Below are positions 18,001 to 24,000 of a stretch of DNA of 64,000 nucleotides, in pieces. Within the stretch, counting starts at the first letter, position 1. Each line of letters opens with the position of its first letter. The stretch spans positions 1 through 64,000 of the forward strand of contig JAAILG010000409.1 in NCBI GenBank assembly GCA_012026655.1. The letters are read 5' to 3'. The DNA comes from Hydrolagus affinis. Taxonomy: Eukaryota. Position numbers: made by a program.

Positions 18001-21000
18001 GCAGTGTTGATCTAAAATCACGGTATGGGAGGCACGCTTGTCATGGGGTTTATTTTTGCTCCTCGGAGGTAGAGGTGTGCTAGAAAGAAAGAACTTGCGT
18101 TTTTTTTTGGAGATTTATCATATCAGAGCATCTCTAAGGACTTCATAGGTAATTATTATTAGTAGCTGTTTGCACAAACAAACTTGGCAGCTATGTGCAC
18201 CAGTAATGTAGTTTGGGTAATAATTTCTGAAGAGATACCCTCTTCTCTTTCCCAAACGTGTCACACTGAATCTGCTGAACAGGCAGGTGGGATCTCAGTT
18301 TAGCATCTCATCCAAAGGACGGCACCTCTGACAATGTTGATGTCTGATGCCAAAATAGCAATATATCATACAAATAACACCAATTATATTTAAAATGCAT
18401 TAAATATAACACCTTTCACAATGGTAGGATGACTACAAATGTTTCACCAGATGTACTGTAAAGCAAAGTGACTGTACTTTCTTAGGTAACCTTGGCCACT
18501 AATTTGCATACAGTGCCACAATAACTATTATGAAATGAGCTATGTGTACACACCAATAATGTGTTGAATTCAGCTTTTATTGGGAGTATTGTTCAGTGGT
18601 GCAATGCAGCAACTGTCTATGCTTGTGTTAAGCAATTTTTCTCCCAGCTGCTTTTATCATCAGTTTGCAGAATGCTGCTGTCTCCTACTGTGAGTTGACC
18701 TATAATAAGAAGCCCTTTGAGCCAGAACTACAAATCATGATCAAATATTGAGACAGATAATTATCATTCGTTTTGAAGTTCTGTTAAAATAAATAAGACA
18801 GTCATAACTAGAATATTAGATTTTTTTAATCATAAGATATCTGAATTTTGCATGAGAACAATTTTGTTTTACAACAACAACAAAATTACATTTACGCCTT
18901 TCACGTCGGGAGGACGTCCCAAGGCGCTGTTCTTTTTAGTGTAGGAAAAGCCCATTAAGGCCCAATAAAACAATGGTTCATCTGTTGCAATACAGTATTG
19001 TGCATTCTAGGCGACAATAGTAAACTTGCTCAGAGTTAGTTTGTGGCAGAAATTTACTTTAGTTCAAAGAAGAGTTTACAAGTAAAAGTAACTGGATCTT
19101 CTTTGTGTCCTGAAGTACTGCACTTCTCTACGAATCCTGCGATTTTAATTCAACTGACAATTCAGTCAAGCACATTAGATTGAAAATAAAACCAAATAAT
19201 TTTTTTTAGTTCATTAGTTCAAGTAGTGCAGTTTTGTTCTCTTATACTTTCAGGGCTCCAGGCCAAACATACAGAGCTTCTCATACAGATTTCTTTTTTT
19301 GTAATCAAAATGACATTTCCATAAATATGGAGGATATAATTTTACAGCCTGTTCTGAAATGGTCATTGCTAAAGGCACCATTTGACATCATTGCATCTGC
19401 AAAAGGTATAAGGGAAAGATGCCTGATGCATTTTTATTTCTTGAATGCAGGTTGGATACGGAATATGATCCAGAATTGCTATTGGAACTGTAGGGTGAAG
19501 CAACTGTGAGGTTGCTCTGGAACTTAATGTGGGCACACGAGAATCTCAAACACAATGTACTATTGAAATGTTGTGTCTGCTGATGCGATGAGAGCTGAGT
19601 AAAAGTATGAAGTGAAACTGTTCTTTTTTTTAAATATGAAAGGGAGAGATTTTTAACTACTGATGACTCCAGAAAGATTCAATACAGACAAAAGATAATG
19701 CAATCTGACTCGCATGCTGTATGGAAGCAGATTACAACTGACAGGAGCATCCTGGTATACTAAAGCTATGCAAATCTATTCAACAACATAGAACATGTTT
19801 GCAAATCATGTTTACTACCTCCTGACACAGTTGATTACATGCACCAATGGCAGTGTACGTGTTGCTGGTGGAATCTTTGGTTGTGTTTTAAAGTGCTGCA
19901 CGATGGCTACAGGTTAGATGATCAGTGGTTAGAGCGCTCGCCTCGTAAGCGAGAGACCCGGGTTCAATTCCAGGCAGGGCAGGGCGAAACCTTGGGCAAG
20001 GTTCCTTACTCCTCATGCCTAATAATAATCTCCAAAAAAAAGAAAAACAATCATAATTGGGTCACTCAATCCACGAATGTTTGTGGGACACTGCTGTGCG
20101 CAAATGGGTGAAGCTCTTTGAGACGTCTAGTAGAAGATGTGAAAGGCAGTATGTCATTTACAAGGATGATTATTATGTTGGGATAACATCCCAAGGGGCT
20201 GAGTTAAGACTGAAAGCAACAATTTTCTGTGGTTTTTGAAACTTTAGGCAATGTTACTCCTATGAGAATACCTATTTGCTGGGGGATGAATCAGCCTCTT
20301 ATTTTTCTGCACTCAATTTACCCATTGCCAGGAACAAAATACTACAATAGCTCTGAACATGTTGAATGCAATGAGCTACTTTACCACTAAAGTAAAAGAA
20401 AACCACTTGGGAAGATCAGAGCTCTGGAGAATTCAATCCCTTGTCATTACATATGTTCTTCGGCTTGTTTTCTTCTACTCAACAAAGGAAGTTTACAGGT
20501 CTACACATTACAATTTACTGTTATACAGCAGCTTTTGACTGGGGGACATCTCAAAGTGCTTGTGATTCAATGATTACATGATTCAATGTGTGCTGACTGC
20601 TCTCTCTTACTTCGAAAAACAGCCATTCTGATGCAGAGCCATAGACAAGCCTGATTCTGCCCTCATCCAGTCTTACCCTCAGCCTTGTGTAAGTAGAATG
20701 CGTAGCAATCAGAACTGGGCACTGTGGCTGATTTTAGTTTTGCTCCTCGAGCCCAGGGATGCTGATTGTACGTCTCTTACTGCTCCACACCCAACTCTTT
20801 TGAAAAAAAAATCCTTGTATTTGACACAGAGCTTTTCACGTATTCTAAACGTCTCAAAGCACTTCCCAGAATATACAGTTGGTCCTCGCATAACGTTGCT
20901 TCAGTCAATGTGGTTTCGTTATTATATTGCTGATACATAGGGGAACATATATCCATTTAACGTCATGATGTTCGCTATTATGTTGTTCGGCAGTGGGTGA

Positions 21001-24000
21001 AAACAATAGGTAGAGTAGATGCATATAGATGCTGAATGGCTGGCATTCTTATGCAAGTTCACTTACTTTGTTTCGCTTAAAGTCACACTTTTCAAGAACA
21101 CAACTACGATGTCAAGTGAGGACTAATTGTTAAGTGAATTGACTATATACACATGTGGGCGAAACGCAGCAGCCAATTGCACACAGCAGTGTCCCACAAA
21201 CAGTAGTGGATTGAAATGACCGATTTTTTTTTTTGAGGGATTATTATTAGGTGCGTGGAGTAAAGAAACTTGCTCAATGTATCACCCTGCTGGGAATGAA
21301 ACCCGGGTCTCTCGCTCGTAAGGCGAGTGCTCTAACCACTGAGCTACAGGGCTCCACAATCAGGCCTCCTGATCCAATTAGTGATGAACTCGATTACAGT
21401 AAATTTCTCATTCTCAAAGCACTCGCTGAGTGATCAGATAGATTAGATCGATTTGTGTTCAGCTAAATTGCTGTACAGTGAAAATCTGAGAGATGAAATC
21501 CTGCTGTTTAGCCCTATGACACAAGTTTGAGGACCCATTCGAATCAATAGGAACCAGCGTTCCATTGACAAGGGATTACATGTTGTACCAAAGCTCAGTT
21601 TTCAGCGTTTTTTGTATAGCATGCTTCGGAGGATAAGGTGAAACATACTTTGTCTCTTGTCATCCTGTGAAAAGATTAAAATTGTGGGGGAACGATGGAA
21701 GATTAATCTGATTGCAATGCTCTGGCTTACTTTGAAGGTAATTTAGCAAGGAAATTCCTGCCTATCTCTGGTGAGGAGTCATACAGAATGATCAGCACAT
21801 CAATATGATAGCACAACAGGGACTGTTCTGTTGATTTAGAGCTGGAGTGCTACGATGCTCCTTATAATCCGGTTGCAAGAAAATTGTTAGTGTTTACTGA
21901 CTGGCAGCTGAAAGTGCAGGGTAATAGATGATTGAAACAAGTAACAATCCGGAAATTTTCTGCTAAATTTGAGCCAAAGGCTCAGATACGCATTTTCTTT
22001 TTGTAAGTGAAGCCGTACAGGTTGGCCTTTAAACAACGTTATACCTTTCCTCATGTGCATGTGTATGTATGTGTGTTTGTGTGAGAGCAATATTTTATGT
22101 TAATTTGTTATGCTAATTCATCATTACTACTCCAACCCCCCCCACCTCCCAAATAATAAATTTTGCTTGTGAATTCCTTGCCAATAATGGCAATAGATAT
22201 CATGTTTACTCCACACACCTGATGATAATCTCTCAAGAAAAAAAATTGGTCATTTCAATCTACAACTGTTCGTGGGACATTGCTGTGCGCAATTGGCTGC
22301 TGCGTTTTGCCCACAAACGTACAGTCAATTCACTTTACAGTATATTCTGTGTATTCCGCTTTGAAACATACAGAAGACGTGAAAAGTGCTATATCAAATA
22401 CTAGGATTATTACTATTATTACTGCCATTTTGGCATTCTATGAAGTGCTTTGAGACATCTTCGAAGATGCGATCAGGCGCTATATCAAATGCAAGGATTA
22501 TTATTATTATTTTCATCAAGTATCCAGTTTTCAATGTCCTCATTTCAATTCATTCCATATACATAATCTTAAACATGTCCACTTTAACTTTTTAATCACT
22601 TTAAAAAAAAAATTAGTCTTTTAAATCCGTTAAATCTTTTAAATTGCTTCGTAATCCTGAGTAATGTCCTGGTCTAATTATAGTAATAAATATTGACGGT
22701 GACTGGTTTGGTAATAGGCAGGCTTCACTGTAATGTGTTATCCCTCTCTACATCTGACGTGATGAGAGACCTGTCAGACGATCACCCTTCCCATTCTAAT
22801 GCTGCTTTTATACCTTCTGCAGCTGCTCAAAGACGGAAACATCCGCCGCGTTGCATCTTTCCATTAAACTAAGACCTATGACTCACTGTAGGAAATACGT
22901 TCATCTTCAATCTGTCCAGCTGTGTTGTCCTCTCTATTGTTAACATTGCTCATAGATAGCAGCCTTGCAGTCATTTCTTTGAATTTGACTGAAAATGAGC
23001 CTTTGCCGAATGTTGGGTAATTGCAATCTGTTGAACTGAGCAGCTGCAAACCGACTGTTTATAATTATCTGAAGGGTAATGGAATAACTGACTGTCACTA
23101 TTTACTGTGCAAATACACCTCTCTCTTTACATAGAGCTAAACTACAACAACAAACATTTATTTGCAATAGCCTTTGAACGTTTGTTGTTTTATATACTGT
23201 ATGTATAAAATTACACTTGTATAGCGTCTTTCACATCAGGAGGACATCACAAGGCTTTCAACAAACTTCAGTGTTAATAGTAGGTTGCATTTCAATGTTT
23301 CCGGTTCGAAACATGATACATGAAAAACTTTATGTTCCTTGAGATGTTAATTTGTTAGCATTAGCCAATGCATTGCGCTTGGTGTGTCATACCCTATAGT
23401 GAATGTTGTGTGCATATATTAGTGTGAATTTAAAACCTATATACTGCGCCAATCAACAACAACAACAATAACTTGCACTTATAGCGCTCCCCCCCACCCA
23501 CCCACCCCCTCCCACCCCAGCGTCTCAGAGCGAAATAAAGAGGTTGCCCCCCGCTTTCTCTAATAGGGATGTAGTGATCCAATTTTTAGATTTTTGTATA
23601 AATCAATCAAAGATACCACAACCATACACAGATTGAAAAAATACATCCATTCATTTTCTTTGCAGGAAATGTATTCCAACTGTTCCAGTTAAACATCTTC
23701 ACTTTCAGGTCTATGCTTGAGTTTATGACTCGTGTACATCCAAACACATCTGCAAATCAAACTCAAGTTTGTTTAGTCAACCGCTCAATCCCACTCCCTA
23801 CTGGATAGTATGATTTCCTTCAATCAATTTCTCTTTATCCAGACCTTTCAACTGATATTCACTGCTATGCTTAGAAGCTAGGTTAATGTGTTTGATTACC
23901 GGTAGGTCAATAAATACTTAAGATGATTTTAAATTCATGGTACACGCAAGCCATCTTTGTGTTTCCTTGCAGCATTACATCTGAATGCTGCTGATGTGAT

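What the first reader, a model, noticed from the sequence alone, without database searches (positions are those of the whole stretch)
20860..21140. One TA in the SINE-A tail acts as a recurrent Tc1/mariner landing site
Seen in the sequence: the SINE-A consensus reads CACTT-TACAG-TATATTCTG. Four separate copies are altered immediately 5' of the same TATATTCTG. A Tigger6-like MITE sits there at 20876-21129, an unrelated pogo-type MITE ends there at 53970, and an extra 5 bp (CAGTA on the + strand) occurs at 7798-7802 and 24266-24270. Established: Tc1/mariner elements insert at TA, and elements ending in CAG...CTG leave TA-CAG-TA or TA-CTG-TA footprints on excision. The two copies with the 5-bp insert have different post-B-box variants (long at 7711, short at 24211), which favours independent events. 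Inference: an abundant SINE has spread a preferred transposase target across the genome.
Basis: partly seen in the sequence, partly recalled or inferred. Interest (0 to 1): 0.72.

Follow-up and report, generated by a model that had tools for sequence, protein, structure and literature searches.

The report
Transposon landing spot inside a SINE
One particular TA inside an abundant short repeat carries a small cut-and-paste transposon, the end of a second one and two scars of the kind such transposons leave, so it looks like a preferred landing site, which is a known kind of thing.

Summary
All four coordinates are right. SINE-A is a tRNA-headed SINE of about 320 bp, with 34 nhmmer hits in the window, and 23 loci cover the site. 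Its consensus reads CACTT-TACAG-TATATTCTG. Four loci read ACTG instead of ACAG before TATATTCTG. One has a 254-bp element with terminal inverted repeats (20876-21129). One has a 367-bp foreign block ending ...CCACTG at 53970. Two have an extra 5 bp that makes TA-CTG-TA, the published canonical Tc1/mariner footprint.

The site makes up 24 of 360 TA instances across SINE-A copies, yet holds all four transposon-type events. The two +5 copies differ in two other indels, never pair in bootstrap trees, and fail a one-clade test (AU p=0.01).

- The MITE's other junction is 5 bp short.
- The 53970 block has no second end, and about 63 bp of SINE are missing beside it.
- n is tiny and the site was picked after the fact.
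- The names Tigger6-like and pogo-type could not be tested.

A hotspot is the best reading (about 0.55). TE-internal insertion hotspots and repeated use of one TA are already in print, so this is a new member of a known kind. In passing: the footprint heptamer is about 3-fold over-represented in the window's unique DNA.

The parts
20807..21354 (-). SINE-A copy interrupted by the 254-bp element. Its head is a tRNA-Val(TAC)-like sequence at 21282-21353.
   Evidence: nhmmer rows 21354-21125 (HMM 1-239) and 20879-20807 (HMM 234-306). ARAGORN. Rfam tRNA 57.4 bits.
20876..21129 (.). Inserted 254-bp element with terminal inverted repeats, beginning CAGTTGGTCCTCG and ending (reverse complement) CAATTAGTCCTCA. 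No other copy in the window.
   Evidence: Inverted arms of 20 nt are 75% complementary. Ends match 11 of 14, 14 of 20 and 18 of 30 ungapped. 0 further copies by blastn (query 20877-21129).
20874..20875 (.). TA flanking the element on the TATATTCTG side (SINE consensus TA 238). The other flank, 21130-21131, reads TT (AA in SINE orientation).
   Evidence: Read.
7717..8045 (-). Full-length SINE-A copy carrying the +5 state.
   Evidence: nhmmer HMM 1-318, E 2.5e-97. Alignment.
7798..7802 (.). Extra 5 bp (CAGTA on +). The site reads TACAGTACTGTA, that is TA-CAG-TA-CTG-TA.
24194..24479 (-). 5'-truncated SINE-A copy of the short-head, short-tail type carrying the +5 state.
   Evidence: nhmmer HMM 23-309..
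24266..24270 (.). Extra 5 bp (CAGTA on +), the same as at 7798-7802.
53421..53603 (+). 5' part of a SINE-A copy (HMM 4-174). It breaks off after GTGGGA.
   Evidence: Sequence.
53604..53970 (.). 367 bp of foreign DNA ending ...GGTTCCACTG. The left junction has neither TA nor CAG, and no terminal inverted repeat was found. It holds four GGTCG(C/T)G motifs.
53971..54052 (+). 3' part of the same SINE-A copy, resuming exactly at TA-TATTCTG (consensus 238 onward).
32187..32213 (+). Reference unaltered site in copy 31984-32268: a 10-bp inverted repeat, CACTTTACAG / CTGTGAAGTG, around the spacer TATATT. The target TA is the first two bases of the spacer.
   Evidence: DNA fold -7.9 kcal/mol, z -3.97, 1 of 200 shuffles as good. 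Arms in 22 copies listed.

Best explanation
SINE-A is a tRNA-derived SINE. Its body carries a 10-bp inverted repeat around the spacer TATATT, just 5' of a conserved 3' module. The first TA of that spacer (consensus 238, context CAG-TA-TATT) has been used several times by TA-targeting cut-and-paste elements with CAG...CTG ends (Tc1/mariner/pogo type).

- One element is still resident (20876-21129).
- The end of a second element, with a similar terminal sequence, abuts the same TA at 53970. Its other end and about 63 bp of SINE were lost in a later deletion.
- Two copies keep the 5-bp scar (TA-CTG-TA) that such elements leave when they excise and the break is rejoined.

The likely cause is target choice by the transposase. 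It needs TA and favours a particular local sequence and shape, and every new SINE-A copy multiplies that site.

Shown: the four junctions, the inverted repeat and the terminal repeats of the resident element. Inferred: that the 5-bp extras are excision scars, that the events are independent, and that the preference is a property of the transposase.
For: 1. The junction ...ACTG|TA|TATTCTG is identical in all four copies.
2. In a census of 63 indels of at least 2 nt over all SINE-A rows, the only 5-nt insertions are these two. The only large foreign inserts in SINE-A copies are these two.
3. The site makes up 24 of 360 TA instances at the 19 consensus TAs. By hand from those numbers, the chance that further events fall on the same site as the first is 0.067 for two events, 0.0044 for three and 0.0003 for four.
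4. The site is hit in 4 of 23 copies, against 26 heptamers per 3924 TAs outside SINE-A (Fisher p=2.2e-5). Counting footprints alone, 2 of 23 gives p=0.011.
5. The +5 state equals the canonical SB footprint TACTGTA (PMC6943129, passages). Among 5-nt indels between all repeats in the window, only these two loci are footprint-like (8 of 40 alignment entries, all at these two loci).
6. The +5 copies are not one clade (0 of 200 bootstrap trees, AU p=0.01). They differ in a head 5-nt indel and a tail 14-nt indel and have unrelated flanks.
7. The terminal 14 nt of the 53970 block match the resident element's end at 10 of 14 (12 of 2254 controls do as well). One transposase lineage could therefore account for both.
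8. The footprint heptamer is over-represented in unique DNA of the window (26 against 6.5-9.4 expected), so such elements have been active here.
9. A pogo-family transposon (Passer) targets TA within AAGTACTT (PMC9976928, passage). The SINE site supplies the AG-TA half.
Against: - There are only four events in one 64-kb window, and the site was noticed first and tested afterwards.
- The resident element's left junction lacks 5 nt of SINE and its TA duplicate reads AA. So the TA five bases upstream (consensus 233) cannot be excluded for it.
- The 53970 block has no second end, and about 63 nt of SINE are gone. Its SINE is the nearest relative of the +5 copy 8045-7717 (support 86/85). Its ACTG could therefore be the SINE's own +5 sequence next to an unrelated rearrangement.
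- Both +5 copies carry CTG rather than CAG and share the CACAAT linker insert. SINE subfamilies can be mosaic.
- The site's match to published target consensus sequences is only 3 of 6 flanking positions. That ties with TA 304 for AAGTACTT and falls behind TA 215 and TA 217 for ATATATAT.
- Neither inserted sequence has another copy in the window.
- No transposase-like ORF was found: 0 of 100 ORFs of at least 75 aa hit Pfam. 15 of the 115 ORFs, those overlapping SINE-A copies, were not sent.
- Small indels are mildly enriched around the site in general (5 against 2.4 expected, p=0.09).
Confidence: 0.55

Rival explanations
1. The +5 arose once, in a SINE-A source gene or by exchange between copies, and was inherited by both +5 copies and perhaps by the 53421-54052 copy. 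On this reading there are only one or two real transposon insertions, and their coincidence with that site is weakly significant at best.
For: - Both +5 copies have the identical CTG version and both carry the CACAAT linker insert.
- The 8045-7717 copy pairs with the 53421-54052 copy (86/85).
- Head, linker and tail indels are mutually incompatible on a tree, so mosaic subfamilies exist.
- The tree is otherwise unresolved: 0 of 8 inner branches are starred.
Against: - The AU test rejects the +5 pair as one clade (p=0.01).
- The copy sharing head and tail indels with 24479-24194 (31984-32268) lacks the +5.
- The pair shares only 1 non-CpG derived base in the 3' 180 nt.
- Even under this rival, the source-gene event and the resident element are two separate events at one TA.
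Confidence: 0.2
2. The pattern is coincidence plus ascertainment. SINE copies are the only places where insertions and 5-bp gains can be recognised against a consensus, and with few events a shared position can arise by chance.
For: - If only two events are independent, the probability of a shared site is 0.067 (by hand).
- The site was chosen post hoc.
- A relaxed scan for TA-CA...TG-TA inverted-repeat structures is at noise level (78 hits against 45-56 in ten controls), so weak terminal repeats alone prove little.
Against: - Three or four junctions are identical to the base.
- CTG directly before the resuming TA at 53970 is itself a 1-in-64 coincidence.
- No footprint-like gain and no foreign insert is seen at any of the other 18 consensus TAs.
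Confidence: 0.15
3. The 5-bp extras are not transposon scars. They are a recurrent mutation caused by the local inverted repeat: an inverted duplication of ACAGT made at a break or replication slip in the hairpin loop. On this reading the site is simply fragile.
For: - The +5 can be written as ACAGT followed by its own reverse complement ACTGT, and it creates a perfect 12-bp palindrome.
- The site lies at the edge of the loop of a stable hairpin (z -3.97).
- Other small changes occur there: a 3-nt loss in 56938-56630 and a 4-nt gain in 57059-57174.
- A truncated tail fragment starts at HMM 240.
Against: - The +5 weakens the hairpin rather than perfecting it (-7.9 falls to -5.8 and -6.7 kcal/mol), which is not what palindrome-correcting slips do.
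- General indel enrichment at the site is weak (p=0.09).
- The same TA holds an element with terminal inverted repeats.
- The same heptamer is over-represented in unique DNA that has no such hairpin.
Confidence: 0.08

Closest known systems
Insertion hotspots inside targeted transposable elements (nested-TE analysis of the human genome, Levy, Schwartz and Ast; PMC2836564, abstract and passages read)
   Same: Later elements land at particular consensus positions of earlier elements. That analysis recovers the TA preference of Tc1/mariner members.
   Different: That work rests on hundreds of thousands of nested insertions and does not use excision scars. Here there are four events in one window, in a non-human genome, with scars counted as well. 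Its supplementary figure with the Tc1/mariner profiles was not seen.
Repeated insertion and excision of Stowaway MITEs at one TA in beta-amylase intron 4 of Triticeae (PMC1925063, abstract and passages read)
   Same: One TA is used several times by Tc1/mariner-type MITEs. Divergent elements and several footprints are found at the same site, including an element inserted next to an older footprint.
   Different: There the copies of the site are orthologues in different species. Here they are paralogous copies of a SINE within one genome.
Canonical Sleeping Beauty excision footprint TACAGTA / TACTGTA (PMC6943129, passages read)
   Same: The +5 state gives exactly TACTGTA at a TA of the consensus.
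   Different: The element that left it is unknown. Pogo-family Passer is reported to leave 0-4 bp (PMC9976928, passage), so a 3-nt scar is typical but not universal.
Target-site consensus of Tc1/mariner and pogo transposases: ATATATAT / ANNTANNT for SB (PMC8934666, passages) and AAGTACTT for Passer (PMC9976928, passage)
   Same: A TA embedded in a partly palindromic, AT-rich, bendable context. The SINE site offers AG-TA and sits in TATATT between inverted arms.
   Different: Only 3 of 6 flanking positions match either consensus. The transposase that acted here is unknown.
tRNA-derived SINEs with a conserved central or 3' module (V-SINE superfamily; the resemblance is recalled, and PMC4824008 passages only name the superfamily and its members)
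   Same: A tRNA-like head, a conserved module shared with other repeat families in the window and a simple-repeat tail.
   Different: Homology of the module to the V-domain was not tested, because no repeat library was at hand.

Membership tests
Tc1/mariner/pogo-type MITE (element 20876-21129) | Terminal inverted repeats beginning CAG and ending CTG | tested here: met
   Arms of 20 nt are 75% complementary. Ends match 11 of 14 ungapped. One end reads CAA instead of CAG.
Tc1/mariner/pogo-type MITE (element 20876-21129) | TA target-site duplication on both sides | tested here: inconclusive
   TA at 20874-20875. The other flank, 21130-21131, reads TT on +. 5 nt of SINE are missing on that side.
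Tc1/mariner/pogo-type MITE (element 20876-21129) | Short, non-coding, present in many copies | tested here: inconclusive
   254 bp. The overlapping ORF has no Pfam hit. There are 0 other copies in the 64-kb window. The genome was not available.
Tigger6-like / pogo family (both inserted sequences) | Sequence relationship to a named autonomous element or its transposase | not testable with these tools
MITE (block 53604-53970) | Two ends with terminal inverted repeats flanked by TA | tested here: not met
   Only the right end (...CCACTG|TA) is present. No matching left end was found. The left junction reads GTGGGA|TCCTAACC.
Canonical Tc1/mariner excision footprint (7798-7802, 24266-24270) | TA replaced by TA-C(A/T)G-TA relative to the empty site | tested here: met
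   Five copies read ACAGTATATTCTG. The two +5 copies read ACAGTACTGTATATTCTG. The motif is as in PMC6943129.
Canonical Tc1/mariner excision footprint (7798-7802, 24266-24270) | Evidence that the site was once occupied (a filled allele or orthologue) | not testable with these tools
   Needs population or sister-species data.
Insertion hotspot within a repeat | Events concentrated at one consensus position beyond the share of available sites | tested here: inconclusive
   4 of 4 events fall at a site that is 24 of 360 TA instances. The sample is small and the site was chosen post hoc.
Insertion hotspot within a repeat | Independence of the events | tested here: inconclusive
   AU p=0.01 against one clade for the +5 pair and unrelated flanks. 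But the pair shares a linker insert and the same CTG version.
tRNA-derived SINE | tRNA-like head, short non-coding body, dispersed and often 5'-truncated copies | tested here: met
   Five heads pass Rfam tRNA and one is called tRNA-Val by ARAGORN. 34 nhmmer hits, many starting inside the model.

The most novel reading that the evidence does not exclude
The site is a self-reinforcing landing pad.
- Each visit and departure regenerates the TA and adds CAG or CTG beside it. That improves the context for a pogo-like transposase: the central TA of the +5 state matches the published AAGTACTT at 4 of 6 flanking positions, against 3 of 6 before.
- The SINE's own TACAGTA may be such a scar, captured in a source gene and then copied across the genome.
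- A single element hopping locally may have visited several SINE-A copies within 17 kb: scars at 7.8 and 24.3 kb and a resident copy at 20.9 kb. Local hopping is documented for SB in PMC3271037 (abstract and passages).
- The roughly 3-fold excess of TAC(A/T)GTA in unique DNA would then be a readable fossil record of cut-and-paste traffic.
Probability: 0.15. Interest if true: 0.55.

Novelty: new member of a known kind. Interest (0 to 1): 0.35.

Why it matters
If it holds genome-wide, an abundant retroposon would shape where DNA transposons land and leave. SINE copies could then serve as hundreds of replicate target sites for reading a transposase's preference and excision history from sequence alone. 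It would also warn that small indels used as SINE subfamily markers can arise repeatedly. Conceptually it extends known work on TE-internal hotspots and on repeated use of one TA, so the gain is modest.

Tried and rejected
- **Other copies of the inserts.** blastn of both inserted sequences against the window found none.
- **A second end for the 53970 block.** An inverted-repeat search found none.
- **Other TA-CAG...CTG-TA elements in the window.** The strict scan gave five hits: four pairs of inverted SINE-A copies and one weak 12-of-16 pair at 33441-35357. The relaxed scan was at noise level, 78 hits against 45-56 in controls.
- **Transposase or host genes.** 100 of the 115 ORFs of at least 75 aa were scanned against Pfam, with 0 hits. 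The 15 left out overlap SINE-A copies.
- **Segmental duplication of the two +5 loci.** Rejected, because their flanks are unrelated (best E 0.047 over 15 nt).
- **Quasi-palindrome correction as the origin of the +5.** Rejected, because the +5 lowers hairpin stability.
- **A module boundary or 5' truncation as the cause of the break at TATATTCTG.** The shared 3' module of other repeat families starts about 5 nt further 3' and does not include TATATT.
- **Insertion into the central TA of a +5 copy.** Rejected for the resident element, because it would need deletions on both sides.
- **Naming the SINE superfamily from papers.** The texts hold no sequences.
- **Literature.** Searches found no paper describing a SINE as a Tc1/mariner hotspot. 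The general phenomenon is in print (PMC2836564, PMC1925063).
- **Not used.** The prokaryote, phage, plasmid and E. coli collections were left alone as irrelevant.

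
Full report
**What the window is.** It holds 64,000 bases with no N and 38.7% G+C. Rfam at gathering thresholds finds only five tRNA-like matches. All are heads of the repeat discussed here, and there are no 7SL/Alu-type matches. None of the 100 ORFs of at least 75 aa that I sent hits Pfam. These were 100 of 115; the 15 left out overlap copies of the repeat. I take the window for non-coding, repeat-rich DNA of a non-human animal. 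That is an inference, and the organism was not identified.

**The SINE.** A profile built from the window's own copies finds 34 hits. The consensus is about 320 nt. It has a tRNA-like head (ARAGORN calls one copy tRNA-Val), an A-rich linker, a body, a conserved 3' module that other repeat families in the window also carry (33592, 37994, 10100), and an (ATT)n-like tail. Copies differ from the consensus by 7-32% outside CpG, so they are old.

**The observation.** All coordinates check. 23 loci cover the site (24 rows). The 13-mer ACTGTATATTCTG occurs exactly four times, at the four named loci, and ACAGTATATTCTG occurs five times.
- *Copy 21354-20807* holds a 254-bp insert (20876-21129). Its ends are inverted repeats: 20 nt at 75% complementarity and 11 of 14 ungapped.
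- *Copy 53421-54052* holds 367 bp of foreign DNA ending ...CCACTG directly before TA-TATTCTG.
- *Copies 8045-7717 and 24479-24194* have five extra bases, giving TA-CAG-TA-CTG-TA.
- In all four, the base-exact junction is CTG|TA|TATTCTG. The TA is therefore consensus 238, not the neighbouring TAs at 233 or 240.

**Blemishes.**
- In SINE orientation the resident element reads CACTT-AA-[CAATTAG...CCAACTG]-TA-TATTCTG. One TA duplicate is degenerate and five SINE bases are missing on the left.
- The simplest account is an inference. Insertion at TA 238 creates the tandem TACAG-TACAG, and one unit was then lost by slippage. Insertion at TA 233 followed by a 5-nt microhomology deletion is the alternative.
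- The block ending at 53970 has no second end, and SINE positions 175 to about 237 are missing. It is at best a truncated element.
- Its last 14 nt match the resident element's end at 10 of 14. Only 12 of 2254 CAG-starting 14-mers in the window do as well. So it is probably a true transposon end of a similar type rather than 'unrelated'.
- Neither insert recurs in the window.

**Is it more than chance?**
- A census of all 63 indels of at least 2 nt in SINE-A rows shows that the only 5-nt insertions are the two at this site. The other disrupted copies are deletions (19922-20176 lacks 196-245; 30602-30506 lacks 218 to about 295).
- The consensus has 19 TAs. The site accounts for 24 of 360 TA instances.
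- By hand from those numbers, further events land on the same site as the first with probability 0.067 for one more event, 0.0044 for two more and 0.0003 for three more.
- Against unique DNA, 4 of 23 compares with 26 footprint-type heptamers per 3924 TAs (Fisher p=2.2e-5). Scars alone, 2 of 23, give p=0.011.
- These tests are post hoc, because the site was chosen for its pattern.
- General fragility is a weak explanation. Small indels within 4 nt of the site number 5 against 2.4 expected (p=0.09).

**Are the two +5 copies one event?**
- Their flanks are unrelated, so they are separate insertions.
- They differ in a 5-nt head indel and a 14-nt tail indel. The copy that shares both with 24479-24194 (31984-32268) has no +5.
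- They share one non-CpG derived base in the 3' 180 nt, which ranks 63rd of 105 pairs.
- In an ML tree of the 11 longest copies, with the site's columns removed, they are never together in 200 bootstrap trees. The AU test rejects holding them together (p=0.01).
- Against independence: both have the CTG version, both carry the CACAAT linker insert, the tree is a near-star with no starred branch, and the head, linker and tail indels conflict with each other, so exchange between subfamilies is possible.
- 8045-7717 pairs with 53421-54052 (86/85). This leaves open that the latter was itself a +5 copy.

**Mechanism.**
- The 5-bp gain equals the canonical Sleeping Beauty footprint TACTGTA: three terminal bases of the element between the duplicated TAs (PMC6943129, passages).
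- The target TA is the first dinucleotide of the TATATT spacer between 10-bp inverted arms, CACTTTACAG and CTGTGAAG(C/T)G. The DNA fold is -7.9 kcal/mol with z -3.97. 15 of 22 rows keep at least 7 of 10 pairs.
- Tc1/mariner and pogo transposases prefer TA in partly palindromic, bendable contexts: ATATATAT for SB (PMC8934666, passages) and AAGTACTT for Passer (PMC9976928, passage).
- The SINE site matches each at 3 of 6 flanking positions, which is tied best for the pogo motif but not unique. The sequence logic is therefore compatible with a preference but not predictive of one.
- The +5 state matches the pogo motif better (4 of 6).
- A hairpin-driven inverted duplication could also write the +5. 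But the +5 weakens the hairpin, and it does not explain the resident element.

**Context found in passing.**
- TAC(A/T)GTA occurs 35 times in the window, against 7.3 +/- 2.2 in shuffles.
- 26 of these lie outside SINE-A, and none is in DNA repeated within the window.
- Outside SINE-A it is the most over-represented of the 32 TA-NNN-TA word pairs (26 against 6.5-9.4 expected).
- Among heptamer pairs with at least 15 hits it ranks sixth by Poisson p, behind only poly-A, microsatellite and G-rich words (p=6e-6).
- An order-5 model still expects only 18.1.
- This fits a history of many excisions by CAG...CTG elements. Decayed TA-CAGTA element ends are an alternative source.

**What is known.** Hotspots for nested insertions at fixed consensus positions of older elements were described at scale in human DNA, including recovery of the Tc1/mariner TA (PMC2836564, abstract and passages). 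Repeated insertion and excision of Stowaway MITEs at one TA, including insertion beside an older footprint, was described in Triticeae (PMC1925063, abstract and passages). Searches found no paper on a SINE acting as such a hotspot. Supplementary figures of these papers (target logos, insertion profiles) were not seen.

**Verdict.** The hotspot reading is the best explanation at about 0.55. It is a new member of a known kind, and interest is 0.35.

Noticed in passing
Whole window; for example 579, 2171, 5239, 8830, 9801, 11462, 15694, 17248 (26 sites outside SINE-A): The canonical Tc1/mariner footprint heptamer TAC(A/T)GTA occurs 35 times, against 7.3 in shuffles. 26 occurrences lie outside SINE-A and all of those are in DNA not repeated in the window. 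It is the most over-represented TA-NNN-TA word (26 against 6.5-9.4 expected).
   Followed up: partly
window 60121-60132: TACTGTACTGTA in unique DNA. This is either two overlapping footprint heptamers or a 5-nt tandem duplication. It is one of only two exact matches to TACWGTACWGTA in the window; the other is the +5 SINE copy at 7796.
   Followed up: partly
window 32187-32213 and the same place in other SINE-A copies: The altered TA sits at the edge of the TATATT spacer of a 10-bp inverted repeat that folds stably as DNA (z -3.97). 15 of 22 rows keep at least 7 of 10 pairs.
   Followed up: partly
window 5656-5735 (+) and 5979-6267 (-): Two SINE-A copies in inverted orientation form a MITE-like structure bounded by TA-CAGTATATTCTG... 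and its reverse complement (16 of 16 matching). A naive MITE finder would call it an element.
   Followed up: no
window 22434-22512: A second SINE-A tail fragment starts at consensus position 240, two bases from the site, only 8 nt after the full copy 22139-22425. It could be a 5'-truncated copy, a partial tandem duplication or a break at the same spot.
   Followed up: no
window 33592-33649 (+), 37994-38041 (+), 10052-10100 (-): Other repeat families share the SINE-A 3' module (GTGAAGC.CTTTGAGAC ... GAAA.GCGCTAT) but have different upstream sequence. The shared module begins about 5 nt 3' of the site.
   Followed up: partly
window 19922-20176 and 30506-30602: Two SINE-A copies have internal deletions. 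Consensus 196-245 is lost in the first and 218 to about 295 in the second, the latter between repeated AAGGATTATT-like motifs.
   Followed up: partly
window 53604-53970: The foreign block holds four spaced copies of a GGTCG(C/T)G-centred motif and no ORF with a Pfam match. Its nature beyond the transposon-like right end is unknown.
   Followed up: partly
window 7717-8045, 20807-21354, 24194-24479: Three of the four altered copies lie within 17 kb and all are on the minus strand. This would fit local hopping of one element but could be chance.
   Followed up: no
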